From: Candidatus Pacearchaeota archaeon
GTDB lineage: Archaea > Nanobdellota > Nanobdellia > Pacearchaeales > GW2011-AR1
Assembly: GCA_018303755.1 (NCBI GenBank)
Contig: JAGVXO010000007.1
Coordinates: 295 to 64,294 of the forward strand
Direction of reading: 5' to 3'
DNA: 64,000 nucleotides
Positions 4,728 to 37,447 of the stretch are shown piece after piece. The notes beneath the pieces are model-generated. The model searched no databases. It worked only from the letters and a program-made list of their open reading frames with translations, and was not told the origin of the DNA. A program made the position numbers and the translations under genes. Position 1 is the first letter of the stretch. Each line of letters starts with the position of its first letter.

Positions 4728-5089
4728 ATAAATTTATTTAATCATTCTCTTATATAAACTATTCCCTAATGGGATTATCAAGATATTTGGAGACTGGACA
4801 TTTAAAGTTTAATCTTGATTGATGCAGCTTAATTAATTTTTCTGACATCCCATAATTTTCCCTTATTTTACACATTTTATTTTTTAATTTTGCTGTTTAC
4901 ATTAATCCTTTTATCTTTAATATAAATTAAATTTTATAAAGAACCAATAAACCATTGGACGAAGAGTTTGAGAATAAATATAAGTAAACACGAAGATTAT
5001 AACCAAGGAGACCATTATGCATCTTTAATCTGATAACCTTTTTTTAATAAAGATTTAAAAAGAGAAGGAGATTATTATGTTTACCTGCA

Positions 5090-8105: not shown

Positions 8106-8300
8106 TTTAAGGATAAATCACCAGAGGATTATTAAGTTAACGCACTATGCCTTTTGAATTTTTAAATAGCTCGTTTATTTTTCTTATTTTAGGTTTGTTT
8201 ATTGGTGTTTTATTTTTTGATTTAAGATATGTAAATTATGATTTGTAAGGGATTATTGACTTATGGAAAACTTTAATAATAAACCTTTTCTTCTTCTTTT

Positions 8301-10261: not shown

Positions 10262-10440
10262 CATTATTTATCAAACTTTGCTTTTTAGGATTACTTTGCT
10301 CGCTCGTTTCACTCGCTCTGCTCGCGATTGTGCTCACATTGTTTAAAACTTTAATTACATTCGTCCAATCGCTCGCCCAACGATTTTGGCTCGCTCCGCT
10401 CACTTATTTATTCTCCTGCAAACCCTTAATCCCTTGGCAC
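10262..10440 (-). repeat. composite intergenic repeat R1 (minus orientation)
   Basis: reverse complement: aagtgagcggagcgagccaaaatcgttgggcgagcgattggacg...gagcacaatcgcgagcagagcgagtgaaacgagcgagc. Confidence 0.65.
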
Positions 10441-10565
10441 ATTGGAATTTATGTATATCACAAAACCCTTTGAGTATACTCCACACTAAAGTGTGGAGTT
10501 TGTGTTTGGGTTTTGGGAGAACCGGGAAAAATCTATACATTTTAACTCCAATCTATGAACAAAGG
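10441..10565 (-). repeat. repeat D (double-hairpin element), copy 3, 5'-truncated
   Basis: reverse complement matches copies 1 and 2 from agattggagttaaaatgtatagatttttcccggttctcccaaaaccc...ctccacactttagtgtggag (perfect 9-bp stem). Confidence 0.75.
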
Positions 10566-10656
10566 TAAAATAAGGAAAAGTTATAGGGTGTTAGAAGAAT
10601 TAAATATCCTTAATCCTTCTAAGAATGTTTAAAAACATCCTTGTCTTTTTGAGGCT

Positions 10657-13963: not shown

Positions 13964-14329
13964 AAAATATAATTAATAAAGAATTTCTTGATTTATAAGT
14001 TTATTGGAATTTAATAAATATTTTCTACTGCATATTATTTTTTATACTCCTACTATTTTTAATTATTTTAATGTTTTGTTGTGATAATGCAAACCTTTTA
14101 AGGAGTTTAAATCACGAAGGATATGATTGCAGGGGATTTGTTTTTTATGGGGGTTCTGCTGAAATCCGTCAGCAGTTTGAATCTGAAATGAGAAAACAAC
14201 TTGCTGGAAGAGAATCAGAATATGTTGTTTTATGCTCTGAAGTCCGTCCATTTGATTACCTTATTAAATGGTTTAATCCTAAGGAACCAAAAAATCCCGG
14301 TGTAATGGGGGTTGATGTTGGTTATTTTA

Positions 14330-15037
14330 TTAAGAATGGCGTTCCGTTGATGAATCATACAGATATCCAGAGAGTCCAAAGATAAACGCTTTTTTCCCTA
14401 TAACTTTTTCCAGTTCTTCTTTTGAGGCATTTATTATATTCTTTATTGAGCCGAAATGCTCGAGAAGCTTTTTTGCATTTTTCGGGCCTATGCCTGGAAA
14501 ACTTTCTATGATATATTGAGTTTGCTCTTTTGGATTTCTTGATTTTCTTTTTAGGTTTGCGCTTTTTTCAGAAGAATTTTCTTTTTTATTGTATAAAACC
14601 TTTATGAATTCTGCTGTATCTTCATAATCTTTTGTGAAAATAATCGGAATTTTTCTTTTTAGCAGAATTGAGAGAATAAAGCCCCTTACTGCATTTTCAT
14701 TTATTCCAGAAGAGTATAAATCTTTTTCATCTGTGCCTTCAATTATCAGAAGCTTTTCTTTGTTTTCATATTGCATAAGAGTATCTAACTGGGATTCCAT
14801 TCTTTTGTTTATCATTGAAGAGAGAAAATCACCGATTGTTTTTCTTTCGATTATTACTTCTTTTACAATATAATCCCCTACTTCAAGATGCACAAAGTTT
14901 ATTTGACATCCTAAGCGCACGAGCTCGCTTGCAACAAGCGCGTTTTTTTCCCTATCATCAATTAGAATTTCCGGTTTATCCAAATCCTGTTCTTCTAGTT
15001 TTCTTTTCTCAGATTTTTCAAATATATTCTCGAACAT
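14330..15037 (-). CDS. XPF/Hef-type ERCC4 nuclease with C-terminal (HhH)2
   Basis: ERCC4 signature IDDREK...ERKTIGDF and a C-terminal FPGIGPKNAKKLLEHFGS helix-hairpin-helix. Confidence 0.7.
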   Translation of the reverse strand: MFENIFEKSEKRKLEEQDLDKPEILIDDREKNALVASELVRLGCQINFVHLEVGDYIVKEVIIERKTIGDFLSSMINKRMESQLDTLMQYENKEKLLIIEGTDEKDLYSSGINENAVRGFILSILLKRKIPIIFTKDYEDTAEFIKVLYNKKENSSEKSANLKRKSRNPKEQTQYIIESFPGIGPKNAKKLLEHFGSIKNIINASKEELEKVIGKKAFIFGLSGYLYDSSTERHS

Positions 15038-15084
15038 TTTTTTAAGAAGGGTTATGCCTTTTTATCTTTAACTGCACTTTTTAT

Positions 15085-15350
15085 TTTTTAAACATCCCCA
15101 TAACTTTTCCTTATTTTACATCTTTTCATTAAAGTTTTCTTTTTTATTTAATATCTCATTAAAAATCATAAAGTCTAATGAACAAATGGACGACAGATTT
15201 GCAGAATTAGATAAGTGAGCGGAGCGAACCAAATTAAGGCGAGCCCGAATGGGCGAGCCGATAATTCCATTATTCAAATAAAAAATCACAACCGAAATAT
15301 TTATAACTCCCCCCCTTAAATTGTTAATCTTGCTTTCATAACGATAAAGC
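15085..15350 (+). repeat. composite intergenic repeat R1 (AT block + GCGAGC block + conserved promoter-like leader)
   Basis: near-identical to 29700-29960 and related to 11+ other copies; contains gtgagcggagcgaaccaaattaaggcgagcccgaatgggcgagc. Confidence 0.8.
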
Positions 15351-15385
15351 AGGAATTTTAAAATTGAGTGAAAGGAGGTGATAAA

Positions 15386-16540
15386 ATGAAAAGCAAAGAA
15401 TGGGTTGGAGTGATTGCTGTTGTTGCAGTTGCGTTTGCAATTGCTTGGGTTTCTGCGAATTTAGATGTTTTAACTAATTCAGGAATACTGCAAAGCCCGC
15501 CTTCTGGTAATGATATAAATGTGACTCCGAGAGAGAATCAGACATATTCCTTTATTATGGGGGGAGATAGGTATGATTATAGATTTGGGATGAATAGTGT
15601 TAAGATTCCATATAGTATTGACTTGTCTATTAATGATCCTTTTGCTCAGGAATCCTTTATGAAAAGATTATCTTTTGCAGGGAATGATACTAATAATTTG
15701 AGTTATGCTTATTTTGGATTCCAAAAGATAATAATAAAGGCAAATCTTGTAAAAGTTCATGATACTTGGGCGAAGAAATGGTTTGTTAATTTAACCTTTA
15801 AAGATGCAACAAATGATCCGAATGCACCTTATACGAAAATTGATGGATGTAATCGTATAGATGAAGTAATCATTGATAAAACTCAGGAGCTTACTGATAA
15901 AGGAAGGATTGTTGTGATAGAAGAAATGAGCCCGGTATATTACGGGAATTACTTTATTGCTCCTGGAGATACTAATGGAACTGACGCAGGGATATATAAA
16001 ATAACTACACTTTCAAACTCTTCTACAGAATTCCATTTAGTGCTTACTGATGTGTTTGACACAGCAAATACTTTTGAGGTTACTGACTCTACTGGAGATG
16101 GAATTGCAAGTATCTATATAATGGGAAAACAATATGAGGTTTACTATGCATTTACTTCCTCAACCCTTCCAATTGAAAGGGCTGTTAAATTTGATTTTTC
16201 GCAAACAATAGGACATCAGATTATGGATTTCAGCAAGTGTGCTAATGCACAAGAGAATTATGTTGGTGTTTTGAAAATGTTGAATGAGTGCGATTTAAGA
16301 TTCGTAGACGATTCTTTTTTTAGAAATCAAACGGCTCACATTTCTTGCGATCAAAAATGCCGAGAATCTGGTCAAGTATGTACTGAAGCATATGGTTATC
16401 TATTTAATGGGACAGATGAAGATTCAGAAGATTTTAGAGTAATAACTACTAGGGTTCTTTGTCAGGCACAGGCTTCATCTTCTGATGTTCTGGGTGGGTA
16501 TCCTTTTTTAGAATTAATGTGCAACTGCTGTGGAGATTAA
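15386..16540 (+). CDS. secreted Cys-rich protein (paralog of 30025..30831 at the 5' end)
   Basis: perfect SD AAGGAGGTGA 4 nt upstream of ATG 15386 (track used GTG 15368); signal peptide ...AFAIAWVSA; C-terminal 9-Cys module. Confidence 0.5.
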   Translation: MKSKEWVGVIAVVAVAFAIAWVSANLDVLTNSGILQSPPSGNDINVTPRENQTYSFIMGGDRYDYRFGMNSVKIPYSIDLSINDPFAQESFMKRLSFAGNDTNNLSYAYFGFQKIIIKANLVKVHDTWAKKWFVNLTFKDATNDPNAPYTKIDGCNRIDEVIIDKTQELTDKGRIVVIEEMSPVYYGNYFIAPGDTNGTDAGIYKITTLSNSSTEFHLVLTDVFDTANTFEVTDSTGDGIASIYIMGKQYEVYYAFTSSTLPIERAVKFDFSQTIGHQIMDFSKCANAQENYVGVLKMLNECDLRFVDDSFFRNQTAHISCDQKCRESGQVCTEAYGYLFNGTDEDSEDFRVITTRVLCQAQASSSDVLGGYPFLELMCNCCGD

Positions 16541-16616: not shown

Positions 16617-19600
16617 TTATATTAATTTTTTTTGTATTTCTTCTTCATCTTTTTTATTTTCGTCTGCGCTTTTTCCTTCACTTTCTATTTCTTCATCCTG
16701 CGCTTTTGCATTAAATGTTCCGTCCTGCATTTCCTGTTTTATTGAGCTTATGGCGTTGTGCATTCTTTTTTCCTTGTGATAAGCGGCCCAGTAATATGCT
16801 TCGTCTCTTGTGTCTTTTGTTATAAGCATTATCAACTCTCCTGGCATTAATCTTGCTGTTCTTCCTGCTCTCTGAATTTTTCTTATTGCGCTTGGAACTG
16901 GCTCGTAAAAAATAACTGTATCAACTTCAGGTATATCAAGCCCCTCTTCTCCTATCTGGGTGCTGACTAAGACATTGAATTTTCCGTCGGAAAAGTCAGA
17001 GATTATTTCTCTTTGCTCTTTTTGGCTTAGTCCTGTATCTCCTTTTTTTGCCTGCCCTACAAAAACTTTTGCACTTGCATTTTCAATCGAATTAATTTCC
17101 TTGCATATTTTTGTCACGCTGTCACGATACTGCGAAAAAACAATTATTTTCGGGTTTTTGATTGAGCTTATTTTTGATTCTATAATTGCTTTTAGCTGAA
17201 GAAGTTTCGGATGCTCTAAATTTTCATTTATCATCTGCTTTATTTTTTCATATGCAATTGTAAAATCAGGATTGCTGACAAGCTTTTTTACAGCTCTGCT
17301 TTTATTCTGCCTTGCCTGTTCATTCAGAGATTCAATATAATTATTTAATCCATAAAGTGTTTGGGTTTCAAGAAGTTCAATTGCATGTCCGATTTTTATT
17401 GCCTGTGCGCATAATGACGCTCCATAGAACAAATTAAAATTTTTACTTCCTCTTGAAATCATAGCCATTATTCTTTTCTGGCAGTCTAACAAAGCGATTT
17501 TGTTTGCGGGCCCATTAAGGATATTTTTTTCTTTAAGCGAATTTATGTTTTTATCATAAATGTTTTTCAAATGAACTTTAATTTCTTTGAATTTTTGCGG
17601 AAATTCCACTTTTATTGTGTTTATGTCAAGTTCCTGCAAATATTCTTTCAAGTCTTCGCTTTCTCGTGTTCTTATTTCAACTTCTTCAATATTCAGATTT
17701 TCACAAATGAGTTTTATTGACTTTTTGTCTGCGCCAGGCGAGGCAGTAAGTCCCAAAATCCTCGCATTTTTCGCCTGCTCGATATACTTTTTCGCAACAT
17801 AAGTGTAGCTGTAATTTTTCACGCATTTATGCGCTTCGTCTTCTATAAGCAGAGAAACTCCTTCTAAATCATATAGTTTTTTCTTTAAATCATTGGCAAT
17901 GCAATTATGGTTTACTAAATAATTTGCTATAAAATTATGGTGTTTATCAACGCTTAAATCATACACTTCTCTTTTTTCTCGACACCCTCTTTTTTCTTTA
18001 ATCTTCACCCACCTTATTGGAAGGTTGAGAAGTTCTTTCAATTTATTGGCACTTTCTCCCTCTAAACAAGAGGATAGCTTTTTTAAATTATCCAAGGACA
18101 GGCAACTAAATTTATAATATTCTGCTTTGCTCATATTAGACTTATGAATTTTTTTCATTAATTCTGGAATAGGCAGTATTTCTTTTGAGCGTGTTTCTGG
18201 TCTTTTTGTATTGTTTAAGGTTTCTATTAGTTTTTTACATTTTTCTTTGTTTGGAGAGGACTCAAGAAATTTTTTTAAATTCAGCCTTCCTGTGAATTTG
18301 AATGTAAAAATTTCAGATTCTTTTAAATGTCTTCCATTTATCGTTCCATGAGATTTTGTTTTTTCAATATTGCCAAGAATGCCTATTCTTAAAAATAGCC
18401 ACTTTAGTCCCTGCACAAATTTTTCGCTTACACTGGATATTGATACTCCGTATTTTGATGCATGGCCATCTGTGTCAAATATTCCTTTGATAAATCCATT
18501 TATAGAATCTTTATCTGCGAAAAATAAAAATTTTGGAATTTCAATTCTTCTTGCTTTTTTTCCTTTTGGGATTCCAAGATGCGAGAAGAAATGTGCGAGA
18601 GCAGAGTTATAAGCAATAAGCCCTTTAGTTTTATCTTTCTTCATTTCAATTCCAAAAACTTCTTTAACTGCCTCTTTAAATTCTTGAGAGATTGATTCTC
18701 TTTCTAATTCTGAGAGGACCACTTCAGACCCATGACCTATCCTATCTCCAATATGTCCATCACCAAACATCGCACCTAAGATATATGCTAATTTATTGTC
18801 TAACTTTTTAGGGAGCTTTATTGGAGAACTTTTTCCGCAGCTATCTGTAAGTGTCAATAAGCTATAATCAAAATCTATTTTTTTTGATAGTTCTAGGAAA
18901 AGTTTTATGGGCATGAAGTTATAAAAATATCTTGAATAAGGCGAGGTTTTAATTTTCTTCTCTTTTAACTTCTTTATTAAGTCTTTTGTAAGAGCAGTAT
19001 CTGCTATTTTTAAACATTCACTCGAAGAGAGGAGATTTAAAATGTCGAGATTTTTTTCTTCTATATCTATCTTCTTTGAAGATGCAATGTAATCTCCTTT
19101 ATTTAGGCTTGACGCTTCCTTCCAAATTAATTCTCCACATGGGCTTATTGTTAAAAGAGGGTGGTCTTTTGTACACAAGAGGGTATTTCCTATTTCGGTT
19201 TTTATATTAATTACTTCTTCGGTTGTCCTTTTCCATGCTTTTGTTGCCTTTAAGAAATCAATTTTTTGCCCATTGTAACCCAGAATTTTTTCATTTATCT
19301 CAGCGACTTCTATTTTTCCATTTAGATAGTTCTTTTCTTCGAAATTAAATTGTTTGAAGAAATCTGAAATTTTTATCGGACCTTCTCCAGTGAATATTAA
19401 TGTTCCGCCATCAATGCACTGCGGAGTTGAAAATATAATGTCTGTTCTCTGCCATATTTTTTTTCTTTTTTCTGCATCAACTTTTCCTGTAAAAAGCTCC
19501 ATTTGAGCAAACAGCTCTGGAAGATATTTTTTAAAATAAGCAATATGCTGTTCTGCGAGCGGGCGTGTTGGAGCAAGAAAAAGAATTTTCTCCTCTGGAA

Positions 19601-19760
19601 ATTTCTGCATCCTATGTATTGTGAGAAGCAATGCAACAAGAGTTTTTCCTATGCCTGTAGGCAGGACTACTAAACAGTTTTTTTCTTTGCATTTTTCAAA
19701 TATCTTTTTTTGATATTCTCTTGGATTTATATCTTTTAAAAATTTCTCTTCTGGCATCAT
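16617..19760 (-). CDS. Hef/RIG-I-like SF2 helicase (nuclease-less) containing one LAGLIDADG intein
   Basis: motifs PTGIGKT, FSTPQ, (intein), EDEAHK, LTASPG, QRAGRTAR; extein about 540 aa plus intein about 505 aa. Confidence 0.8.
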   Translation of the reverse strand: MMPEEKFLKDINPREYQKKIFEKCKEKNCLVVLPTGIGKTLVALLLTIHRMQKFPEEKILFLAPTRPLAEQHIAYFKKYLPELFAQMELFTGKVDAEKRKKIWQRTDIIFSTPQCIDGGTLIFTGEGPIKISDFFKQFNFEEKNYLNGKIEVAEINEKILGYNGQKIDFLKATKAWKRTTEEVINIKTEIGNTLLCTKDHPLLTISPCGELIWKEASSLNKGDYIASSKKIDIEEKNLDILNLLSSSECLKIADTALTKDLIKKLKEKKIKTSPYSRYFYNFMPIKLFLELSKKIDFDYSLLTLTDSCGKSSPIKLPKKLDNKLAYILGAMFGDGHIGDRIGHGSEVVLSELERESISQEFKEAVKEVFGIEMKKDKTKGLIAYNSALAHFFSHLGIPKGKKARRIEIPKFLFFADKDSINGFIKGIFDTDGHASKYGVSISSVSEKFVQGLKWLFLRIGILGNIEKTKSHGTINGRHLKESEIFTFKFTGRLNLKKFLESSPNKEKCKKLIETLNNTKRPETRSKEILPIPELMKKIHKSNMSKAEYYKFSCLSLDNLKKLSSCLEGESANKLKELLNLPIRWVKIKEKRGCREKREVYDLSVDKHHNFIANYLVNHNCIANDLKKKLYDLEGVSLLIEDEAHKCVKNYSYTYVAKKYIEQAKNARILGLTASPGADKKSIKLICENLNIEEVEIRTRESEDLKEYLQELDINTIKVEFPQKFKEIKVHLKNIYDKNINSLKEKNILNGPANKIALLDCQKRIMAMISRGSKNFNLFYGASLCAQAIKIGHAIELLETQTLYGLNNYIESLNEQARQNKSRAVKKLVSNPDFTIAYEKIKQMINENLEHPKLLQLKAIIESKISSIKNPKIIVFSQYRDSVTKICKEINSIENASAKVFVGQAKKGDTGLSQKEQREIISDFSDGKFNVLVSTQIGEEGLDIPEVDTVIFYEPVPSAIRKIQRAGRTARLMPGELIMLITKDTRDEAYYWAAYHKEKRMHNAISSIKQEMQDGTFNAKAQDEEIESEGKSADENKKDEEEIQKKLI
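17904..19418 (-). other. intein in helicase (between FSTPQ and CIANDL)
   Basis: starts with Cys (CIDGGTL), ends HN followed by +1 Cys; internal LAGLIDADG blocks (LAYILGAMFGDGH, DKDSINGFIKGIFDTDGH). Confidence 0.75.
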
Positions 19761-21409: not shown

Positions 21410-21534
21410 TCTTCTTTTGCGATCATCCAATAATCTTGCCTTATTTTAAGTTTGTTCATGGGCGTTTTTTATTTTTAATATAAATGAATCTTATTCAAAT
21501 TTATAAAAGAAATAGATTGCCTTTGTATGAATGT

Positions 21535-21725
21535 ATGGCGGATTAGCAGATTTGAAGAAAAATAAATATGAGTGAGCAGAGCGAACCAAATTAAGGCGAG
21601 CCCGAATGGGCGAGCATATTACTTATTTTGCTAACACCCTCCATACTTTTTTCCACATTTTACCTCTTTTCATTAAATTTTTTTTATTTAATATTTCATT
21701 AAAAATATAACTTCTAATAAACAAG
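21535..21725 (+). repeat. composite intergenic repeat R1
   Basis: gagtgagcagagcgaaccaaattaaggcgagcccgaatgggcgagc followed by tattttgctaacaccc...ttttcattaaa...ttatttaatat block. Confidence 0.75.
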
Positions 21726-21809
21726 TGGATTAAGAATTTAAGAAATGCCTTTTAAATACCTTTTAGAAAGGTATTTAAATAATGCTGGTTTTTTATTGGG
21801 GTTATTAAA

Positions 21810-25649: not shown

Positions 25650-25790
25650 AATTTGTTTGCACGTGCAGATAAATTGAGCGTTTTAAGGGATGTTTTGCTC
25701 GCTTCGCTCGCCTTTTTATTTTTCAAATTTGTTAATCTATTGATACATTGGTTTTCAGGAATTTAATTTGTATTAATAATAAAATAATAA
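25650..25790 (-). repeat. composite intergenic repeat R1 (minus orientation)
   Basis: reverse complement contains aaaaccaatgtatcaa...ggcgagcgaagcgagcaaaacatccc. Confidence 0.6.
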
Positions 25791-26023: not shown

Positions 26024-28285
26024 ATGGTTATGTTATTTAAAAAAGGGGCTGTGCTTTATTCATATGAAGTTCAGAGAGAGTCAGGAGAGAATGTTATTTA
26101 TGTAAACTATCTTGGAGCGCCTGATATTCCAAGCATCGCAAAATCTCCTGAAGTTATGACAAGAGCAATTGATTTATTTATTGAATCTCCTAATGCTTCG
26201 AGATTAGTATTAGTCCAGCAGAGAAATTACAGCTATAATTCAGAGCAGGTTGAAATGCTTGTTGAAATTGCACAATTATATACTTTTCTTTTAAAGCAGG
26301 AAAGAGTGCTTTCTCCAGAAATGTTGTCAAGTAATCCAAGGGAGTTATCATCAAGATATGCTTTTATGAATTATTTTATGACTATTTTAAGACAGAACCC
26401 ATTTTTAGCATACAGAAAGATTAAAAATGCCTTAATTGAAGAAAAATCAAAGAGTGGGCACGATATTCTTTACATTGGGCTTCTTGAAAAAATTGTTTCA
26501 TTACTCTTAAAAACAAAACTTATTTTAAAAATAGAAAAATATGCAGAGGATTATGCTTTTGAAAGCAGGGAAATATACGAAAAACTTTTTTCTCCAAATA
26601 TAATCCCTAATTATGCTTTTGCAAGGCTTGCTTCTGAGCTTCCGGAAAATGCGAAAATAATATCGCAATATGCTATTGGAAGTGGAGATGATAAAAGCAC
26701 AGTAACTATCTTAAAAAAAGAAAATGAATTAAAATATATTTATCATTTAATGCCTCCTGAATATTTTCTTAATGAGGATTTTCAGATGCTTCTTAATCTT
26801 GCGAGAAATGTTCTTATAGAGCACCAGCCAAAGGCAGAAGAGTTTACAGATACTGAAAGAACAAGGCAGGTTTTTTTTAATGTTGCGCGCGATTTATTGA
26901 GGGAGCTTGCAGAAGAAAAACATATAACTTTTTCTTATGAAGAGCTTGGCAAACTCGCGATGATTCTTGTAAGACATACAATTGGCTTTGGCTTGTTAGA
27001 GGTTCTTTTGCAGGACAGTAATTTGCAGGATATTGTTCTTAATGCTCCGATAAGCATGAATACAATTTTTGTAAGGCATGGAAAATATGATGAGTGTTCT
27101 ACGAATATTATTCTTAGCCAGGAAGATGGAGAATCGTGGGCCGCGAAATTCAGAATGATTTCAGGAAGGCCGCTTGATGAGGCAAATCCTGTTCTCGATA
27201 CTGATTTATTGATTGAAGGCGCGAGAGCAAGAGTTTCAATTGTGCAGAGGCCTTTATCTCCTCACGGACTTGCATATGCTGTAAGAAGACACAGAGATTA
27301 TCCTTGGACACTTCCTTTGTTTATTGAAAATAAAATGCTTAATCCATTTACTGCTGGATTATTAAGTTTTCTTATTGATGGGAGCAGGACACTTCTTGTG
27401 GCAGGAACAAGAAGCTCTGGAAAAACTTCGCTTCTTGGAGCTTTAATGCTTGAAATAAAACCAAAATATAGAATTATCCTTATAGAAGATACTCTTGAAA
27501 TTCCTGCAGATTATTTGAGAAAAATGGGTTATGATATTTTAAGTATGAAGGTGCGTTCTTCGCTGACTGAAACAAGCAACGAAGTTACAGCAGAAGAGGG
27601 AATAAGAACAAGTTTGAGATTAGGAGACAGCTCTTTAATTGTCGGCGAGATAAGAAGCAATGAAGCAAAAGCATTATATGAGGCAATGAGAGTAGGAGCA
27701 CTTGCAAATGTTGTTGCAGGAACGGTTCATGGAAACTCTCCTTATGGTGTTTTTGACAGAATTGTAAATGATTTGCAAGTTCCGATTACAAGTTTTAAAG
27801 CAACTGATTTAGTTCTTGTTGCAAATCCTGTTAAAAGTCCTGATGGATTACATTCTGCGAGGAGAGTTGTTCAATTAACAGAGGTAAGAAAGCACTGGAC
27901 AAAAGATCCTCTTGAAGAAAAAGGATTTGTTGATTTGGTTAATTATAATGTTGAGAAAGATGAATTAGAGCCGAGTGATGAATTGATTAACGGGAATTCT
28001 GAAGTTATAAAAGCAATTGCTTCAGGAGTTAAGGGATGGGCAGGAAACTGGGATGCTGTTTATGATAATATTATTTTAAGAGGGATGGTTAAACAGGAGC
28101 AGGTTGAATTAGCACATAGGTTGAACAGGCCAGAACTACTTGAGGCAAATTTTTCCCTTCTTGCAAATACTTTATTTCATAACATTTCTGAAGAAGTTAC
28201 AAAAGAGTTAGGATTTCCTGATTCCAAGATTGTTTTTCCTAAATGGAAAAAGGACGTTGAGAAACTTGCGCAGGATTTTTCTTAA
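26024..28285 (+). CDS. type IV pilus/archaellum-type secretion ATPase (GspE/FlaI/PilB family)
   Basis: Walker A VAGTRSSGKTS, Walker B IILIEDTLEI, downstream Asp/His boxes; large N-terminal domain. Confidence 0.75.
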   Translation: MVMLFKKGAVLYSYEVQRESGENVIYVNYLGAPDIPSIAKSPEVMTRAIDLFIESPNASRLVLVQQRNYSYNSEQVEMLVEIAQLYTFLLKQERVLSPEMLSSNPRELSSRYAFMNYFMTILRQNPFLAYRKIKNALIEEKSKSGHDILYIGLLEKIVSLLLKTKLILKIEKYAEDYAFESREIYEKLFSPNIIPNYAFARLASELPENAKIISQYAIGSGDDKSTVTILKKENELKYIYHLMPPEYFLNEDFQMLLNLARNVLIEHQPKAEEFTDTERTRQVFFNVARDLLRELAEEKHITFSYEELGKLAMILVRHTIGFGLLEVLLQDSNLQDIVLNAPISMNTIFVRHGKYDECSTNIILSQEDGESWAAKFRMISGRPLDEANPVLDTDLLIEGARARVSIVQRPLSPHGLAYAVRRHRDYPWTLPLFIENKMLNPFTAGLLSFLIDGSRTLLVAGTRSSGKTSLLGALMLEIKPKYRIILIEDTLEIPADYLRKMGYDILSMKVRSSLTETSNEVTAEEGIRTSLRLGDSSLIVGEIRSNEAKALYEAMRVGALANVVAGTVHGNSPYGVFDRIVNDLQVPITSFKATDLVLVANPVKSPDGLHSARRVVQLTEVRKHWTKDPLEEKGFVDLVNYNVEKDELEPSDELINGNSEVIKAIASGVKGWAGNWDAVYDNIILRGMVKQEQVELAHRLNRPELLEANFSLLANTLFHNISEEVTKELGFPDSKIVFPKWKKDVEKLAQDFS

Positions 28286-28292
28286 ATCTTAT

Positions 28293-28470
28293 TTTTAAAC
28301 ATCCCATAATTTTGCCTTATTTTTACATCTTTTCATTGAAGTCTTCTTTTTTATTTAATATCCCATTAAAAATCATAAAGTCTAATGAACAAATAGACGA
28401 CAGATTTGCAGAATAAAACAAGCGCGAAGCGCACTAATGTCGTTATTAATGTGAGCGAGCGAAAGATTTA
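28293..28470 (+). repeat. composite intergenic repeat R1
   Basis: aaacatcccataattttgccttatttttacatcttttcat...gacagatttgcagaataaaacaagcgcgaagcgcac...gtgagcgagcgaaag. Confidence 0.75.
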
Positions 28471-28489
28471 AATATCCATATACTTCTAT

Positions 28490-29095
28490 ATGATAAGGTG
28501 TATAAATATGTATGAAAATAAATATAAAAATGAGCCTCTTACGAGATTAGAAGATTTAGATATTCTTTTAAATCTTTTGGCAGATTTAAATGAGCCGTTG
28601 GAATTGTTTGCAATAGGAGGAACTGCAATGGTTTTAAAAAGAATTAAAGAATCTACAAAGGATATAGATTTTTTGACTGCTGAAAAATATGAGAAAATTA
28701 AAAAGCTATTTACTTTAGCAGGTTTAAAAGAAGAAAGTTCTAATAAACTTTGTAACATTTGGAAATTAGGCAATATTCGGATAGATATTTTTTATGATGG
28801 TTTTATTATGGGCATAAGATTTCCTGATGATTGGAGAAAGTTATCTGAAAAAGTAAAAGAAATTGGAAAAATTAAGCTATATATTCTTAATTGGTATGAT
28901 TTGATTATCACGAAAATTTCAAGGGCTGAGAAAAGAGATATTGAAGATATAATTGCAATAATAAAAAGCCAAAAGTTAGATTTTGGTTTTTTGAAAAAGA
29001 GATATTATTCTTTTGCCGAAACTGCACTTATTTCAGATTTTGATTATAAATTTAAACATTTGGAAAGGGAATATGCCAAGCGCAAAATTGATTAA
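28490..29095 (+). CDS. nucleotidyltransferase, paralog N2
   Basis: LFAIGGTAMVLK...DIDFLT NTase motif; same architecture as 23625 and 43554. Confidence 0.5.
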   Translation: MIRCINMYENKYKNEPLTRLEDLDILLNLLADLNEPLELFAIGGTAMVLKRIKESTKDIDFLTAEKYEKIKKLFTLAGLKEESSNKLCNIWKLGNIRIDIFYDGFIMGIRFPDDWRKLSEKVKEIGKIKLYILNWYDLIITKISRAEKRDIEDIIAIIKSQKLDFGFLKKRYYSFAETALISDFDYKFKHLEREYAKRKID

Positions 29096-29693
29096 GGCAC
29101 TTGAAAAAGAAGGCTTTTTTTTGGAGTTTCCAGAATATTATTCAAATGAAGAAATTGTTTTTGAGATATTAAAGGAGGACAATCCGAGAATAACTCTCTG
29201 CCTGCCGCTTTTTTTAAGAAAAGGAATAGATTACAAAACGATTTCCTCGAAATTAAATCCCAAAAAGAAAAAAGAATTAAATAGGGCAATTGCTATCAGT
29301 GATAAAATCTACAAAAAAGAAAAAATTGAGAATACTCTTTCAGGCATTATAAAACAAAATAGAATAAAAGTAAACTTCTCAGAACAGGAATTCAAAGAGT
29401 TTTATGATTCTTTTAAAGAGAGTCGAGCAAGATTAAAAGAAAATGAACAAAAAATTATTGAAAAGCAGTCTAAACTGCGGCTTAATCTTGATTTAAACAA
29501 ATGCATGTCTGTTTTATTTTCTCCAGCAAAGATAAAAATAATGGAGAAAATATTCAATCATAAACTGCTTACGAATACAGAATTAAAGTATTATTATAAA
29601 TCCATTTCAAATATAAACAAGGCAGTTTTAAATCCAAATTTGCAGGATTATTTAAGGATAATTGAGATTACGAAGAAGATTGCGGAGAAATGA
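29013..29693 (+). CDS. hypothetical protein, downstream partner of NTase N2
   Basis: overlaps the NTase gene 3' end; Lys-rich helical protein. Confidence 0.3.
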   Translation: MPKLHLFQILIINLNIWKGNMPSAKLIKALEKEGFFLEFPEYYSNEEIVFEILKEDNPRITLCLPLFLRKGIDYKTISSKLNPKKKKELNRAIAISDKIYKKEKIENTLSGIIKQNRIKVNFSEQEFKEFYDSFKESRARLKENEQKIIEKQSKLRLNLDLNKCMSVLFSPAKIKIMEKIFNHKLLTNTELKYYYKSISNINKAVLNPNLQDYLRIIEITKKIAEK

Positions 29694-29699
29694 GCGAGC

Positions 29700-29960
29700 T
29701 AAATTAATTATTCTAACATCCTATAATTTTGCCTTATTTTAAGTTTGTTCATTGGTGCTTTTTATTTATTGATTTAAAACATAATGTAAATTCCAATCTG
29801 CTCACGGGTTTAGGATTTACAAAATAAATAAGTGAGCGAAGCGAACCAAAATTGTGGGGCGAGCCCGCAGGGCGAGCCGATAATTCCATTATTCAAATAA
29901 AAAATCACAACCGAAATATTTATAACTCCCCCCCCCTTGGATTGTTAATCTTTCAATAAG
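29700..29960 (+). repeat. composite intergenic repeat R1 with promoter-like leader (9-C tract)
   Basis: taagtgagcgaagcgaaccaaaattgtggggcgagcccgcagggcgagccgataattccattattcaaataaaaaatcacaaccgaaatatttataactccccccccc. Confidence 0.8.
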
Positions 29961-30024
29961 TTTTTAACACGAAAAAGAAAGATTGAACTAAAATAAAAAA
30001 TAGTGATTGAAAGGAGGTGATAAA

Positions 30025-30831
30025 ATGAATAGAAATTTAGTGATTGGACTTTCTGTTACTTTAGTTGCTGTTTTAATTGCAGGAAGCTTGAGCGGATGGT
30101 TTGGATTGACTGGAAACGTAATTTGGGGAAGTTCTCCCTATGCTGATAAGATTGCAAAATTAGGGAAAACATATACTCTAAATTTAGAAGGGAGTAGTCA
30201 TACATTTTTAGTTACCGATTATCAGAGAGAAAATTCTACTTCTGTAGGGTTTATCTGGTTAAATGTGGATGGAGAACTAAAAAAGGTAAGTTATGGGACA
30301 TCTGCTGTTAGATTTTGGGATAATATTGACGTGCAGATTTTACAGTTTTACAATTGGGCAGGAAGTTTTGTTCAAATAAGGTTTTTTTATCTTTACCCTG
30401 AATATACTGATATGAATGATTGTAGGTGGGAATATAATACTTATGATAATGAGTATCTCCCAGAATCTCGGGCGGTAATTTGCAGATATGGTGAAGAAGT
30501 ATTAGTCTCAACCGAATTTGTCACTTGTGATACTCCAAGGTTGGTTGAAACATGGAACTATTGGTGGCCTGGATTTAAAGGTGCACCAACCTTTGGAAGA
30601 GGGTATACTTGTTATGACTCTTCTTCAAATACTGTTTTTAAGCCAGGGTATGTATCTGGAGTATGTTGTAAAGTAAGAAGTACAAATGGATCTCCAGGAG
30701 TAATCTCTTCATTGAAGTCTGGTGCTGAAAATGGAGAAATCTTGGCAAAGGTAAATCAATTGACTTCAGATAATAAAATAATAGAAAGAGATTTAACTTC
30801 TGAAGAAATAGAAGTGACTTTATCTGCTTAA
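30025..30831 (+). CDS. secreted protein (5' paralog of 15386..16540)
   Basis: identical SD and leader; N-terminal hydrophobic signal; Cys, Trp and Tyr-rich. Confidence 0.45.
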   Translation: MNRNLVIGLSVTLVAVLIAGSLSGWFGLTGNVIWGSSPYADKIAKLGKTYTLNLEGSSHTFLVTDYQRENSTSVGFIWLNVDGELKKVSYGTSAVRFWDNIDVQILQFYNWAGSFVQIRFFYLYPEYTDMNDCRWEYNTYDNEYLPESRAVICRYGEEVLVSTEFVTCDTPRLVETWNYWWPGFKGAPTFGRGYTCYDSSSNTVFKPGYVSGVCCKVRSTNGSPGVISSLKSGAENGEILAKVNQLTSDNKIIERDLTSEEIEVTLSA

Positions 30832-30913
30832 GCAATTTATTTTTTATTTTCTTTTTATTTTCTTTTTTCAATACCTTTATTAATTCTTTTTTTCTTATTT
30901 CTATAAGGAATAA

Positions 30914-33130
30914 GTGAAAGAGGGAATAATGGCGGATGTTAATGAGATTTTAAAAAAGTATGGGGGCAAGCTTTCAGAGGGGATTAATGAAGAGTATAAA
31001 TCCGGGGATATAAGCAAAGAGTATATACATTTCAAACAGGATATGATGCCACAGCTTTCAAGATATGAAAAGCTTGCAAAGACGTTTTCTCTTTTAAAAC
31101 TTAAAATGGGAAAAAAGAGCGAGGAGAGAATGAAGAAAAATCTTGATTCTGCGCATCTTGACTTGACTCCTTCTGATGTTGCGACTTTTTCTTTTTTTTC
31201 TGCAGTAATGGTTTTTATGCTCGGACTTGTAATTTATGTTGTTGTTTATATGAATACAGATGAACTTTCTGGCGCAAATGGATTATTTTTAGCGCTTATG
31301 TTTATTGCATCTCTTTTTGTTTTTTATTTTGTATATACCTCTCCTGAAAGAATGGCGAATATGTGGAGATTAAAAGCTGGTTCGCAAATGGTGCCGTGCA
31401 TACTTTATATTGTAGTTTATATGAAGCACACTTCAAATTTGGAAAGAGCAATACATTTTGCATCTCAGAATTTAAAAGCGCCTCTTTCGCTTGATTTGAA
31501 AAAGATTTTCTGGGATGTGGAAACTGGGAGATTCAGCACAATAAAAGAGAGTTTGGATAATTATCTTAAAACATGGGAAAAATACAGCATTGAATTTGTC
31601 GAGGCATTTCATCTTATTGAGAGCAGTTTGTATGAGTCGTCTGAATTAAGAAGAATTCAGATACTTGAAAAATCACTGCAGGTGATTCTTGACGGGGTTT
31701 ATGAAAAGATGCAGTCCTTTTCACGAGAAGTCCGCGGACCTTTGACAAATGTTTATATGCTGGGAGTTGTTCTGCCGACACTTGCGCTTGCACTTCTTCC
31801 TCTTGCTTCGACACTTTTAGGAGGAGTTATAAAAGTTTATCATGTGTTTATACTTTTCAATCTTATTGTTCCTTTTCTTGTGTTTTATATGACTAACAGC
31901 ATTATGCTTAAGCGTCCAGGAGGACATGGAGAGAGCGAGATTTTAGAAATGAATCCTGACTATCCTAAATATAAAAGCAAAAAACCATATTTTATTGCAG
32001 CATTATTTGCAGTTCCATTATTAATTATTGGCTTGATGCCATTGTTTTTTCAATGGGCTTGGTTTGTGCAGACATTTAATCTTGCTCCTGATTATAATCT
32101 TGGAGTTTTAGGCGGGAATTTTGAAGGAGCAGTTATGTTTGATTATAAAAATGCTGATTTAAGTTCTGGAAGCTCGATAATGACACTTGCAGAGCTTAAT
32201 TCTGCAAAAAATATTGCAGGGCCTTTTGGAATTGGCGCGCTTATTCTAAGCTTGTTTGTTCCTCTTTCTGTATGCCTTTTTTTTGCTATTTCTTTTTCTA
32301 TTAAAACAAAAGAGATGATAAAGGCAAGAAAAAATACACAGGAGCTTGAGAAAGAATTTACAAACTCGCTTTTTCAGCTTGGAAACAGGATTGGCGACGG
32401 GCTTCCTGCTGAAGTTGCATTTGCAAGAGTTGCAGAATCAACACGCGGACAGAGAACAGCAGAATTTTTTAGAAAGGTGAATCTTAATCTTCAGCAGTCA
32501 GGAATGTCACTTGAAAACTCTATTTTTCATCCGCGCAATGGGGCAATAATCTTCTTTCCATCACAGCTTATTGCTACGAGTATGAAAATTCTTGTTGAAT
32601 CAGTCAAGAAAGGGCTGAAAATTGCAGCACAGAGTTTAATGAGTATTTCAGAATATCTGAAAAATATAAATAAAGTTGAAGACAGGATGAAGGATTTGCT
32701 TGCAGAGGTTACAAGTGATATGAAAAGCAATATGGTATTTTTGGCGCCTCTTCTTGCAGGAATTGTTGTCGGACTTGCTGGTATGATTACTTCTATAATA
32801 AACAAACTGACTCTTCTAATAGATTCTATGGCTTCTGGACAGGAGATTCCCGGATTTGGAAATATTTCAAATATTGTAAATCTCTTTGAAATAACTAAAA
32901 TGGTTCCGCCTTATTATCTGCAGATTGCAATAGGAATTTATCTTATCGAGATTATTTTTATTCTTACAAAGGTTCTTGTTACAATTGATTCAGGAGAGGA
33001 CAAGTTAAGCACAACAAACAGAATTGGAAAGAATCTTTACACGGGATTATTCCTTTATTTTGTTGTGACTCTTGCAGCAGTCATTACTCTTTATATTCTT
33101 GCAACTGTTTCTTTGGGCGCGATTGGGTGA
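30914..33130 (+). CDS. type IV pilus platform membrane protein (FlaJ/TadC/GspF-like)
   Basis: 738 aa, multiple TM helices in two clusters separated by cytoplasmic domains; immediately downstream of the ATPase locus. Confidence 0.55.
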   Translation: MKEGIMADVNEILKKYGGKLSEGINEEYKSGDISKEYIHFKQDMMPQLSRYEKLAKTFSLLKLKMGKKSEERMKKNLDSAHLDLTPSDVATFSFFSAVMVFMLGLVIYVVVYMNTDELSGANGLFLALMFIASLFVFYFVYTSPERMANMWRLKAGSQMVPCILYIVVYMKHTSNLERAIHFASQNLKAPLSLDLKKIFWDVETGRFSTIKESLDNYLKTWEKYSIEFVEAFHLIESSLYESSELRRIQILEKSLQVILDGVYEKMQSFSREVRGPLTNVYMLGVVLPTLALALLPLASTLLGGVIKVYHVFILFNLIVPFLVFYMTNSIMLKRPGGHGESEILEMNPDYPKYKSKKPYFIAALFAVPLLIIGLMPLFFQWAWFVQTFNLAPDYNLGVLGGNFEGAVMFDYKNADLSSGSSIMTLAELNSAKNIAGPFGIGALILSLFVPLSVCLFFAISFSIKTKEMIKARKNTQELEKEFTNSLFQLGNRIGDGLPAEVAFARVAESTRGQRTAEFFRKVNLNLQQSGMSLENSIFHPRNGAIIFFPSQLIATSMKILVESVKKGLKIAAQSLMSISEYLKNINKVEDRMKDLLAEVTSDMKSNMVFLAPLLAGIVVGLAGMITSIINKLTLLIDSMASGQEIPGFGNISNIVNLFEITKMVPPYYLQIAIGIYLIEIIFILTKVLVTIDSGEDKLSTTNRIGKNLYTGLFLYFVVTLAAVITLYILATVSLGAIG

Positions 33131-33139
33131 TTTTTTCTG

Positions 33140-33545
33140 TTATTTTCTTTAAACACACTATAACTTTTCCTTATTTAACATCTTTTCATCTCACTTTTTT
33201 CTTAATATTATTAAAACAATCCAAAGGACAAATGTATCAATGGAGTCAGATTTGCAGAATAAAATAGGCGAGGCGAAGCCGAGCACAATATTTATTTTGT
33301 TAATATCCAATAATTTTCCCACATTTTACATCTTTTTAATTGCCTTTTTATTTTTTTAATTAGATTTTGATTTAATGCATTTAAACTTTATAAAAACCAA
33401 TGTATCAACGGATTAGGGGTTAGCAGAATAAAACGCGCGCCCGCAGGCGCGCGTTATCTCTCTATTAAACGAGCGAGGCGGAGCCGAGCGAAAATCGTGG
33501 GGTCGCAGGGCGAGCGAACCGAAGGTGAGCGAGCCGTTATACTCT
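33140..33545 (+). repeat. composite intergenic repeat R1, about 2 tandem units, with a perfect GC hairpin
   Basis: two A-blocks (33148-, 33300-) and GC blocks (33265-33290; 33430-33540); hairpin gcgcgcc-cgca-ggcgcgc at 33435-33452. Confidence 0.75.
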
Positions 33546-33605
33546 TCAGAAAGCCGTAGTTTAATTCAGAGATACATTTATTAATTATTCTTTGTTAATT
33601 GAATT

Positions 33606-33770
33606 ATGGTGGAAAGAGAGGATAAACGGGGCTTTGAAATGGATTTTCTTGCGTGGACTTTGCTTGCAATTGCAACTGTTGCAGTTGTTGTGATTATTTA
33701 TCTGGGCATTATCGGAAGACTTGATGGAATAGTTGAATATATAAAAAATGTTTTTACTTTTGGAATATGA
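33606..33770 (+). CDS. small type IV pilin-like protein (class III signal peptide)
   Basis: 54-aa ORF absent from the track: MVEREDKRG|FEMDFLAWTLLAIATVAVVVIIYLGI; ATGA overlap with the next gene. Confidence 0.5.
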   Translation: MVEREDKRGFEMDFLAWTLLAIATVAVVVIIYLGIIGRLDGIVEYIKNVFTFGI

Positions 33771-35766: not shown

Positions 35767-35929
35767 ATTAATAATGGAGAATAAAAATGCCTGAAAATCT
35801 GCCAATGGAAAATGTTGTGAGAATTTTATTCTGGATAATTTTGTTTATTTTTCTTGGGATAGGGGTTTATCTGATTTATAAAGGACTGACGAACGTATAA
35901 TATAAAAACTCTATTTTATTTGTTTTATA

Positions 35930-36976: not shown

Positions 36977-37000
36977 TTATAAATTTTAATTTGTTGTGAA

Positions 37001-37447
37001 ATGAATAAAAAAGGTGAAGAGTTGGTTATTGAACAGGTTATTTTTATAGTTTTGAATATCGTGTTTGTGGGTTTGCTTTTAGCATTTGCTTATAAGACAT
37101 CATCTTCTGCATTTACTTTTGAGCAGAGATATGCAAAAGAAATCGCGCTTCTTATTGACAGCACAGCAGACAATTCTGCACTGAAATTAGATGTTACAGA
37201 AGCATATGAAATTGCCAAAAAAAATAATATTCCAAAAGAGGAGATGATTGTTATTTCTGACAAAGAGGTTATTTTAAAACTTTCTGGAGAAAAAGGATAT
37301 GCTTATCCATATTTTCATAAAGTGAGCATAGATAAAATTGGCGGAATTTCTTATGAAGATAAAAAAGAGGATTCTGGAAATGAGCGAGTTTTTGTCAATA
37401 TAATTCTTGGAAATGCCGGAGGAGAAAATGAGAATGGTCAAGATTAA
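37001..37447 (+). CDS. pilin-like protein with class III signal peptide
   Basis: MNKKG|EELVIEQVIFIVLNIVFVGLLLAFAY. Confidence 0.5.
   Translation: MNKKGEELVIEQVIFIVLNIVFVGLLLAFAYKTSSSAFTFEQRYAKEIALLIDSTADNSALKLDVTEAYEIAKKNNIPKEEMIVISDKEVILKLSGEKGYAYPYFHKVSIDKIGGISYEDKKEDSGNERVFVNIILGNAGGENENGQD

What the first reader, a model, noticed from the sequence alone, without database searches (positions are those of the whole stretch)
15260..15390. Poly-C tract of variable length (7 vs 9 C) inside a duplicated promoter/leader of two secreted-protein genes: a candidate phase-variation switch
The 130 bp upstream of genes 15386 and 30025 are near-identical: cgataattccattattcaaataaaaaatcacaaccgaaatatttataactCCCCCCCtt...gaaaggaggtgataaaATG. 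This segment holds a BRE/TATA-like ccgaaatatttataa box, then a homopolymeric C run directly downstream, then a perfect SD. The run is C7 at 15309-15315 and C9 at 29928-29936. Homopolymer length changes between a TATA box and the TSS or leader are a classic slipped-strand mechanism for switching surface-protein expression in bacteria. It is rarely documented in archaea. Here it sits in front of paralogous secreted Cys-rich proteins.
Basis: partly seen in the sequence, partly recalled or inferred. Interest (0 to 1): 0.7.

Follow-up and report, generated by a model that had tools for sequence, protein, structure and literature searches.

The report
Poly-C tract in shared archaeal promoter

Summary
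C7 lies at 15309-15315 and C9 at 29928-29936, each 2 nt after an identical BRE/TATA (AACCGAAATATTTATAAC).

The two downstream proteins are not paralogs. Only the promoter, leader ends, SD and ATG are shared.

The module has at least four members in the same Candidatus Pacearchaeota genome: A C7, B C9, C C8 and D C7. Conservation starts sharply at the BRE. Most genes here are leaderless, with the TATA 29 nt before the ATG. That places the tract in the TATA-to-start-site spacer, at about -20 to -12.

Each locus keeps its own modal length across 31 metagenome contigs. Four contigs differ, by one nucleotide, and only at the C8 and C9 tracts. Control A/T runs of 8 nt gave 0 variants in 66 observations (Fisher p=0.002).

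A distant relative has only C3 at this position.

Best reading: a propagated expression cassette with a slippage-prone spacer that probably tunes expression rather than toggling it. An ON/OFF switch is untested. The closest analogue is the C-stretch of the Bordetella fim promoters.

The parts
15072..15262 (+). Copy of a dispersed intergenic repeat of about 180 nt. It ends in GC mini-hairpins (GTGAGCGGAGCGAAC; GCGAGCCCGAATGGGCGAGC) and lies directly upstream of the promoter cassette. This is context, not part of the cassette.
15290..15307 (+). BRE/TATA box AACCGAAATATTTATAAC of locus A. Conservation across the four-member family starts here.
15309..15315 (+). [quoted passage not shown]
15316..15331 (+). 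Conserved initiator block TTAAATTGTTAATCTT. The predicted transcription start is about 15326-15329, taken from the -29 spacing seen at leaderless genes.
   Evidence: inferred; no 5'-end data
15328..15354 (+). Predicted hairpin near the 5' end of leader A (CUUGCUUUC...AAAGCAGG). Support is weak.
15370..15385 (+). GAAAGGAGGTGATAAA, with a perfect SD (GGAGGTGAT at 15374-15382). In the window only genes A and B have it.
15386..16540 (+). Gene A: 384 aa, N-terminal signal or anchor MKSKEWVGVIAVV, Cys-rich C-terminus. Lineage-specific, with remote extracellular-domain relatives.
29696..29882 (+). Another copy of the dispersed intergenic repeat, upstream of the locus B cassette.
29909..29926 (+). BRE/TATA box of locus B, identical to that of locus A.
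29928..29936 (+). C9 tract. The modal length is C9. Other metagenome contigs show C8 (twice) and A+C7 (once).
29937..29952 (+). Initiator block TTGGATTGTTAATCTT. The predicted start is about 29946-29948.
   Evidence: inferred
29945..29986 (+). Predicted hairpin near the 5' end of leader B (UUAAUCUUUC...GAAAGAUUGA). Support is weak.
30009..30024 (+). GAAAGGAGGTGATAAA, with a perfect SD at 30013-30021.
30025..30831 (+). Gene B: 268 aa, N-terminal signal or anchor MNRNLVIGLSV...LTGNVIW. It is an ORFan lying inside a Tad/type-IV-pilus-like locus.

Best explanation
The region is the core promoter and 5' leader of a reused expression cassette. Its order is: BRE/TATA, C tract, conserved initiator ATTGTTAATCTT, leader, perfect Shine-Dalgarno, ATG, and in three of four copies the same signal-anchor codons.

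The cassette drives at least four different small secreted or membrane-anchored proteins in one Candidatus Pacearchaeota genome. That genome otherwise uses mostly leaderless transcripts. The copies have exchanged segments by recombination.

[quoted passage not shown] It was inherited with the cassette and changes by replication slippage. This gives locus-specific lengths (7, 9, 8, 7) and occasional variants one nucleotide shorter in natural populations.

Archaeal RNA polymerase starts at a set distance from the TATA box. A length change therefore moves the AT-rich melting region and initiator by 1-2 nt and changes the mRNA 5' end. The most likely result is a graded change in promoter strength or mRNA 5' end (a rheostat), not a full ON/OFF switch.

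Shown here: the sequence, the cassette family, the position of the tract relative to the TATA box, and the hotspot of variation. Inferred: the start site, slippage as the cause of the variation, and any effect on expression.
For: Four-member family:
- A: T-C7-TTAA.
- B: T-C9-TTGG.
- C: G-C8-TTTGG (P0003, beside SRP54).
- D: G-C7-TTAA (P0004).
- The C and D genes occur in the same samples, and C lies on the same 97.5-kb contig as locus B.
- In alignment A2, conservation begins exactly at AACCGAAATATTTATAAC.

Position of the tract:
- The genome is mostly leaderless. The TTTA[TA]A hexamer peaks at -29 from the ATG, with 17 of 66 genes at -30 to -27.
- The start site is therefore about 27-29 nt after the start of the TATA box, which falls inside the conserved GTTAATC.

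Strong-expression features:
- The perfect SD GGAGGTGAT occurs only at genes A and B in the window.
- The downstream proteins are unrelated.

Mosaicism implies recombination:
- Upstream flank: A = B.
- Base before the tract: A = B (T), C = D (G).
- Bases after the tract: A = D, and B is close to C.
- Long leader: shared by B, C and D.
- Signal peptide: shared by A, C and D.

Variation hotspot:
- In contigs L005, L008 and L055 the only differences over 3.2-6.8 kb lie at the tract.
- Variants: 4 of 19 observations for the C8/C9 tracts against 0 of 66 for eleven A/T runs of 8 nt, Fisher p=0.0019.
- Only the longer tracts vary.

Comparison with known systems:
- A distant family member (P0012, locus L064) keeps the BRE/TATA, leader and SD but has only C3. 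The long tract is therefore a lineage-specific expansion.
- In Bordetella fimX, C7 against C8 changes transcript level about four-fold (PMC1891110).
Against: - No transcript 5' ends, expression data or read-level data were available.
- Each locus has one dominant tract length across samples (27 of 31 contigs). The population is not visibly mixed.
- Two of the four variants come from JGI assemblies that carry odd paired indels nearby. L005 has -C and +T 6 nt apart. L047 has +T and -A 24 nt apart inside gene B, which creates stop codons. Some variants may therefore be assembly errors.
- Several assemblies may be re-assemblies of the same Rifle aquifer reads, so the contigs are not all independent.
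- All spacings seen (20-22 nt from the start of the TATA box to ATTG) lie within the known tolerance. The effect on expression could be nil.
- A-rich TATA-like stretches about 30 nt before both ATGs could act as secondary promoters.
Confidence: 0.55

Rival explanations
1. True phase variation. Slippage in the C tract switches each cassette between ON and OFF, so the population shows combinatorial sets of surface proteins. These would be contingency loci, as in the Mycoplasma hyorhinis vlp genes or the Bordetella fim genes.
For: - A multi-locus family of signal-peptide proteins shares one promoter with a G/C homopolymer of 7-9 nt.
- Different loci vary independently in different samples: B in three contigs, C in one.
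- L008 carries an interrupted allele, A+C7, which would lock the length.
- A 2025 review of phase variation, as read here by keyword search only, mentions archaea once, as a group whose phase-variation loci remain to be surveyed (PMC11868660).
Against: - Only changes of one nucleotide were seen, and one modal length per locus holds in 27 of 31 contigs.
- Archaeal start-site choice is measured from the TATA box and tolerates about +/-2 nt (PMC2699501). There is no second fixed promoter element whose spacing would break.
- Tract lengths of 7-9 are at the low end for high-rate slippage.
- There are no expression data.
Confidence: 0.2
2. Neutral passenger. The C tract has no regulatory role. It was copied with the cassette, and its length differences are neutral slippage, with some assembly or sequencing error at a G/C homopolymer.
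For: - The distant relative works with only C3 at this position, so a long tract is not needed.
- All observed spacings lie within the tolerated range.
- Two of the four variants sit in contigs with suspicious paired indels.
- The four copies are too little diverged to show selection for keeping the tract.
Against: - Lengths are reproducible per locus across many assemblies, so the differences between loci are real.
- In L005 the lost C is matched by an extra T 6 nt downstream. This restores the distance from the TATA box to GTTAATC and hints that spacing is under selection.
- In the analogous Bordetella fimX promoter, a single-C change from C7 to C8 alters transcription about four-fold.
Confidence: 0.2
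3. The tract is transcribed and acts in the mRNA leader, for example as an anti-SD (CUCC pairing with GGAG) or as the target of a small RNA, as with RepG and the Helicobacter tlpB G-repeat.
For: - If transcription began at or before the TATA box, folding pairs CUCC of the tract region with GGAG of the SD.
- A small RNA that targets a variable homopolymer in a leader is known in H. pylori (abstract of PMC8295292, listed).
Against: - Conservation among the four copies starts at the BRE/TATA. There is no shared promoter further upstream.
- The TATA box lies only 2 nt from the tract, and the genome's TATA-to-start distance is about 29 nt.
- CUCC becomes CGCC in copies C and D, which abolishes the pairing.
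- The folds are no better than shuffled sequence (z = -1.75 and -0.2).
- There is no Rfam match.
Confidence: 0.04

Closest known systems
Bordetella pertussis fim promoters (fim2, fim3, fimX, fimN): conserved 'fim box' plus 'C-stretch'
   Same: - A family of genes for secreted surface subunits shares one conserved promoter that contains a poly-C tract.
- Tract length differs between the paralogous promoters and changes by slippage.
- Even C7 against C8 at fimX changes transcript level about four-fold (PMC1891110).
   Different: - The Bordetella case is a bacterial sigma-70 promoter. There the tract sets the distance between the BvgA activator site and the -10 box.
[quoted passage not shown] No second fixed element is known.
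- The downstream genes here are not homologous to one another.
- No expression data exist for this case.
Mycoplasma hyorhinis vlp genes
   Same: - Multiple surface-protein genes have a highly conserved 5' region.
- Each has a homopolymer in its promoter, and insertions or deletions there switch transcription (PMC10502178).
- Conserved 5' ends are joined to variable gene bodies.
   Different: - The vlp tract is poly(A) in a bacterial promoter spacer, and the proteins are lipoproteins.
- High-frequency ON/OFF switching was shown experimentally there. Here only variants one nucleotide shorter were seen in assemblies.
Putative mobile promoters / promoter propagation (Matus-Garcia, Nijveen and van Passel 2012, PMC3488235)
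   Same: Highly similar upstream regions (at least 50 nt at 80% identity or more) lie in front of non-homologous coding sequences within one genome. The A/B pair meets this definition.
   Different: - That survey does not concern homopolymer tracts.
- Here the cassette also carries the leader, the SD and, in three copies, the signal-peptide codons.
Canonical archaeal BRE/TATA promoters (for example Methanocaldococcus jannaschii, PMC2699501)
   Same: BRE plus a TATA box, an AT-rich proximal element and an initiator at a set distance. [quoted passage not shown]
   Different: A G/C homopolymer of 7-9 nt directly after the TATA box is not a described element. The other promoters in this window are AT-rich at that position.

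Membership tests
Simple-sequence-repeat (homopolymer) promoter phase variation / contingency locus | A G/C homopolymer long enough to slip (about 7 nt or more) | tested here: met
   C7, C9, C8 and C7 at loci A-D. The only C runs of 6 or more in the window are at these promoters.
Simple-sequence-repeat (homopolymer) promoter phase variation / contingency locus | The tract lies inside the core promoter, between elements whose geometry matters | tested here: inconclusive
   The tract starts 2 nt after the TATA box and ends about 12-14 nt before the predicted start site. The start site is inferred. Archaeal promoters have no second fixed element comparable to the -35/-10 pair.
Simple-sequence-repeat (homopolymer) promoter phase variation / contingency locus | Tract-length polymorphism within or between populations above background | tested here: met
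   4 of 19 against 0 of 66 control A/T runs, p=0.0019. In three contigs the tract holds the only difference over 3-7 kb. Caveats: assembly consensus only, possible artefacts, non-independent assemblies.
Simple-sequence-repeat (homopolymer) promoter phase variation / contingency locus | Reversible ON/OFF or graded change in expression that tracks tract length | not testable with these tools
   No reads, transcriptomes or reporters were available.
Simple-sequence-repeat (homopolymer) promoter phase variation / contingency locus | The controlled genes encode surface-exposed or secreted products | tested here: met
   N-terminal hydrophobic signal or anchor in A, B, C and D. Relatives of A's middle domain sit in large proteins with Big_13, Laminin_G_3 and DUF4215 domains. 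Localisation is inferred, not shown.
Putative mobile promoter (promoter propagation) | [quoted passage not shown] | tested here: met
   65-nt exact repeat. A against B gives BLASTP E>1. Upstream neighbours differ: ERCC4 nuclease against a 206-aa protein. Definition from PMC3488235.
Archaeal BRE/TATA promoter | A BRE plus TATA motif that matches the organism's own consensus, at the proper distance from a start site | tested here: met
   The motif matches GAAA-N2-3-TTTATAA, which is seen 29 nt before the ATG of many leaderless genes in the window. The start site itself was not mapped.
Known structured RNA leader or riboswitch (Rfam) | Match to an Rfam covariance model | tested here: not met
   No hits at gathering score over the whole window, and none at E<=1 over 15040-15420.

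The most novel reading that the evidence does not exclude
These are the first contingency loci described in Archaea. A DPANN (Pacearchaeota) cell would vary the output of a family of surface proteins, each on its own, through slippage of a poly-C tract in the TATA-to-start-site spacer of a shared, recombining promoter cassette. The mechanism would work through placement of the initiator and melting region, not through -35/-10 spacing.
Probability: 0.25. Interest if true: 0.8.

Novelty: new variant of a known kind. Interest (0 to 1): 0.55.

Why it matters
Phase variation through simple repeats is a textbook bacterial strategy. A 2025 review, read here only by keyword search, mentions archaea once, as a group still to be surveyed for such loci (PMC11868660).

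DPANN archaea live attached to host cells and depend on their surface proteins. A family of strongly expressed, lineage-specific surface proteins is a natural place to look for bet-hedging, especially when all share one promoter cassette whose only unstable spot lies inside the core promoter.

Even if the tract proves neutral, two findings stand. First, a promoter, leader and signal-peptide cassette is reused and shuffled in front of unrelated genes. Second, this happens in an otherwise leaderless genome. Both are useful for annotating these poorly understood genomes.

Tried and rejected
Searches that led nowhere:
- Exact-pattern scans for the promoter (20-mer in genome contigs and metagenome contigs, 18-mer in viral contigs) gave only chance hits in unrelated bacteria and a giant virus.
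- Word-indexed homolog searches for proteins A and B found only themselves. Pfam and NCBIfam gave nothing for A, B, C or D.
- An AlphaFold model of protein C from a 4-sequence alignment was unusable (pLDDT 40), so no fold search was run.
- Rfam gave no hits.

Ideas considered and rejected:
- Paralogous genes: rejected.
- An anti-SD role for the tract: rejected.
- A conserved leader structure: the folds are weak (z between +0.7 and -2.5). Two candidate structures remain, a 5' hairpin and a long-range CUUUCAAU/AUUGAAAG helix next to the SD. Neither is established.
- Small ORFs inside the dispersed repeat: rejected, because reading frames and stops are not conserved between copies (read directly).
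- The dispersed repeat as an integron attC site: considered only because one gene pair is present or absent between two copies. Not pursued, because most flanking genes are housekeeping genes in both orientations.

Not usable: contig L042 first looked like a diverged strain. It is in fact a join of the upstream flank of locus B to locus C through the repeat.

Full report
1. The observation

The sequence is as described. C7 lies at 15309-15315 and C9 at 29928-29936. Each tract lies 2 nt after CCGAAATATTTATAA, at 15292-15306 and 29911-29925. An exact 65-nt repeat joins 15251-15315 to 29870-29934. After the tract, TT-NN-ATTGTTAATCTT is shared. The last 21 nt, GAAAGGAGGTGATAAAATGAA, are identical and occur nowhere else in the window.

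The middle of the two leaders differs in sequence and in length: 38 nt in A against 56 nt in B. The claim of '130 bp near-identical' is therefore only partly right.

The window is about 32% G+C. C runs of 6 or more occur only at these two sites, and C9 ties with one A9 as the longest homopolymer.

2. The genes

Gene A (15386-16540, 384 aa) and gene B (30025-30831, 268 aa) each begin with a hydrophobic signal or anchor and contain several cysteines. They show no similarity to each other (BLASTP E>1). Neither matches Pfam or NCBIfam.

The word-indexed search found no homologs for either protein. An exhaustive HMMER search did find remote relatives of A:
- A middle domain (residues about 147-286) recurs in large proteins that carry Big_13, Laminin_G_3 or DUF4215 domains.
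- A Cys-rich C-terminal domain recurs in small proteins of 150-169 aa.

The products are therefore probably extracellular. The two genes are not paralogs.

Gene B lies in a Tad/type-IV-pilus-like locus. This holds a FlaI/TadA-like ATPase (26024-28285), a 733-aa polytopic membrane protein (30929-33130) and a 54-aa ORF (33606-33770) with a prepilin-like KRG|F start.

3. The organism and its promoters

Identical proteins occur in many groundwater metagenome contigs. A source names family members 'Candidatus Pacearchaeota archaeon' J4463_01630 and J4463_03480.

I aligned the upstream regions of 66 gene starts in the window. The hexamer TTTA[TA]A peaks sharply at -29 from the ATG: nine genes at -29 and 17 within -30 to -27. 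The genome is therefore mainly leaderless, and its TATA box starts about 29 nt before the transcript start. The local consensus, GAAA-N2-3-TTTATAA, matches the motif at 15292-15306.

Genes A and B are exceptions. They have leaders of roughly 58 and 77 nt, and they carry the only perfect GGAGGTGAT Shine-Dalgarno sequences in the window.

Applying the genome's own spacing puts the start sites at about 15326-15329 and 29946-29948, inside the conserved GTTAATC. The tract then lies at about -20 to -12. This start site is inferred, not mapped.

4. A four-member cassette family

Contig L042 led to a 163-aa protein that has A's first 13 residues but B's type of leader. Searching with it returned P0003 (163 aa) and P0004 (145 aa). 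P0003 is found on contigs up to 97,525 bp long. That is the length of the contig that also carries locus B.

Their loci carry the same module:
- Locus C (beside SRP54): AACCGAAATATTTATAAC-G-C8-TTTGGATTGTTAATCTT.
- Locus D: AACCGAAATATTTATAAC-G-C7-TTAAATTGTTAATCTT.
- Both continue with the long leader, GAAAGGAGGTGATAAAATG and MKSKEW[VI]GVIAVV.

In the four-way alignment, conservation begins exactly at the BRE/TATA, and the upstream flanks of C and D are unrelated to those of A and B. This is what a promoter-defined module looks like. It argues against a start site upstream of the tract.

The similarities are mosaic:
- Upstream flank: A = B.
- Base before the tract: T in A and B, G in C and D.
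- Bases after the tract: A = D, and B is close to C.
- Long leader: shared by B, C and D.
- Signal peptide: shared by A, C and D.

No single tree fits this pattern. The copies must have exchanged segments by recombination or gene conversion.

The A/B pair meets the published definition of a putative mobile promoter (PMC3488235).

5. Is the tract variable?

Non-redundant contigs give the following:

| Locus | Modal length | Contigs with modal length | Variants |
|---|---|---|---|
| A | C7 | 5 of 5 | none |
| B | C9 | 9 of 12 | C8 in two contigs, A+C7 in one |
| C | C8 | 7 of 8 | C7 in one |
| D | C7 | 6 of 6 | none |

The differences between loci are therefore real and reproducible. Variation occurs only at the two longer tracts.

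In L005, L008 and L055 the tract region holds the only differences from the reference over 6.8, 6.5 and 3.2 kb. As a control, eleven A/T runs of 8 nt in the same contigs gave 0 variants in 66 observations, against 4 in 19 for the C8 and C9 tracts (Fisher p=0.0019).

Caveats:
- In L005 the lost C is accompanied by an extra T 6 nt downstream.
- L047 has two further indels, 24 nt apart, that break gene B. These may be assembly artefacts. In L005 the pair could instead be a real compensation that restores spacing.
- Some assemblies may derive from the same reads.
- Many contigs end inside the module, as expected for a repeat present in four copies.

6. Relatives elsewhere

Two distant members of the C/D protein family could be examined.
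- P0008 (locus L063) follows another gene with no promoter of its own, but keeps GAAAGGAGGT.
- P0012 (locus L064) has CCGAAAGGTATATATATA-TT-CCC-ATT, a leader and ATGAAAGGAGGT.

The strong promoter, leader and SD design is therefore a family trait. The long C tract is not: it is C3 in that relative. The C7-C9 tract is a lineage-specific expansion and is not needed for the promoter to work.

7. Mechanism

[quoted passage not shown] Mutations in the AT-rich proximal element can change transcription efficiency strongly (PMC2699501).

Here the distance from the start of the TATA box to ATTGTTAATC is 20 nt in A and D and 22 nt in B and C, with variants at 21 nt. In B and C this places the AA of GTTAAT at +28/+29, which is the genome's optimum. 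In A and D it lies at +26/+27.

All of these lie inside the tolerated window. An archaeal promoter also has no second fixed element whose spacing would be broken by a change in length. I therefore favour a graded effect on promoter strength, start-site choice or the mRNA 5' end over an ON/OFF switch.

A graded effect from a single C is not far-fetched. At Bordetella fimX, C7 against C8 changes transcript level about four-fold (PMC1891110).

The idea that the tract is transcribed and acts as an anti-SD is disfavoured, for three reasons:
- There is no conserved promoter further upstream.
- CUCC becomes CGCC in copies C and D.
- The folds are no better than shuffled sequence.

8. Comparison and verdict

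The closest analogues are two bacterial systems.
- The Bordetella fim promoters are a family of promoters with a C-stretch of differing length.
- The Mycoplasma hyorhinis vlp genes have a conserved 5' region with a homopolymer whose indels switch transcription.

Both are bacterial and act through spacing between two promoter elements. This case is in an archaeal BRE/TATA promoter, and its effect is untested. A 2025 review of phase variation, which I read only by keyword search, mentions archaea once, as a group whose phase-variation loci remain to be surveyed.

The interpretation as a switch is partly supported. The location, mutability and type of gene fit, but switching itself is not shown. 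If the tract does affect expression, this is a new variant of a known kind.

Noticed in passing
window 4826-5000, 8151-8240, 10365-10612(-), 15072-15262, 21410-21620, 21615-21740, 25690-25730(-), 28284-28470, 29696-29882, 33132-33290, 33282-33540, 41770-41925(-), 50498-50700, 50733-50915, 55400-55607(-), 57570-57780(-), 63909-64000: A dispersed intergenic repeat of about 170-190 nt, with at least 14 copies in 64 kb, in both orientations. It starts with a conserved 5' box (YTAACATCCCATAAYTTTKCCTTATTTTA..TTCATTGG). An AT-rich stretch follows, then CAATG..GG, then GATTTGCAGAATAAA. It ends in 1-3 GC mini-hairpins closed by C(GNA)G triloops with a GCGAAGC core. In the stems, tandem G.A/A.G alternates with G:C/C:G between copies. 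The 5' end lies 5-15 nt after upstream stop codons, and the hairpins lie 30-50 nt before the next promoter. There is no Rfam match. Its function is unknown.
   Followed up: partly
window 28355-29700, compared with locus L007: One metagenome contig lacks the DUF6036 nucleotidyltransferase gene and its 206-aa partner. The missing segment lies exactly between two copies of the dispersed repeat. Other contigs join the same flank to locus C (L042) or to an rve integrase gene (L045). Either the repeat mediates rearrangements or it misleads assemblers.
   Followed up: partly
window 14071-14076: The window has a 60-nt in-frame deletion directly after the ATG of the gene at 14071-14385. The gene is 104 aa here and 124 aa in all metagenome contigs examined.
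   Followed up: partly
whole window: The genome is largely leaderless. A TTTA[TA]A box peaks at -29 from the ATG. A perfect SD is reserved for the cassette genes.
   Followed up: yes
window 26024-39100: A Tad/type-IV-pilus-like locus. It holds a FlaI/TadA-like ATPase (26024-28285), a 733-aa polytopic membrane protein with no family match (30929-33130) and a 54-aa ORF (33606-33770) with a prepilin-like KRG|FEMDFLAW N-terminus. Several uncharacterised genes follow.
   Followed up: partly
window 16617-19760 (-): A DEAD/Helicase_C helicase of 1047 aa interrupted by an intein with a LAGLIDADG domain. Contig L002 carries a cluster of indels inside it that splits the ORF.
   Followed up: no
locus L066 604-1061; locus L047 2540-2565: In one contig, gene A matches the window only as far as window position 15675 and then continues into unrelated sequence with its own ORF. 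In another contig, gene B carries a +T/-A pair of indels 24 nt apart that creates stop codons. Each is either real disruption of the cassette genes or an assembly artefact.
   Followed up: partly
proteins P0003, P0004, P0008, P0012 and window 30025-30140: A conserved N-terminal module runs across the small-protein family. It consists of a hydrophobic helix, then (I/L)(T/A)G(D/N)(V/T)I(K/R)(V/L), then G..(V/I)YT..E.D..L, and is followed by variable bodies that are often Cys-rich. Protein B shares LTGNVIW. The AlphaFold model was too poor to interpret.
   Followed up: partly
window 41248-41254: The only other G/C homopolymer of 7 nt or more in the window is a G7 run, inside the coding sequence of gene 40900-41763.
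   Followed up: no
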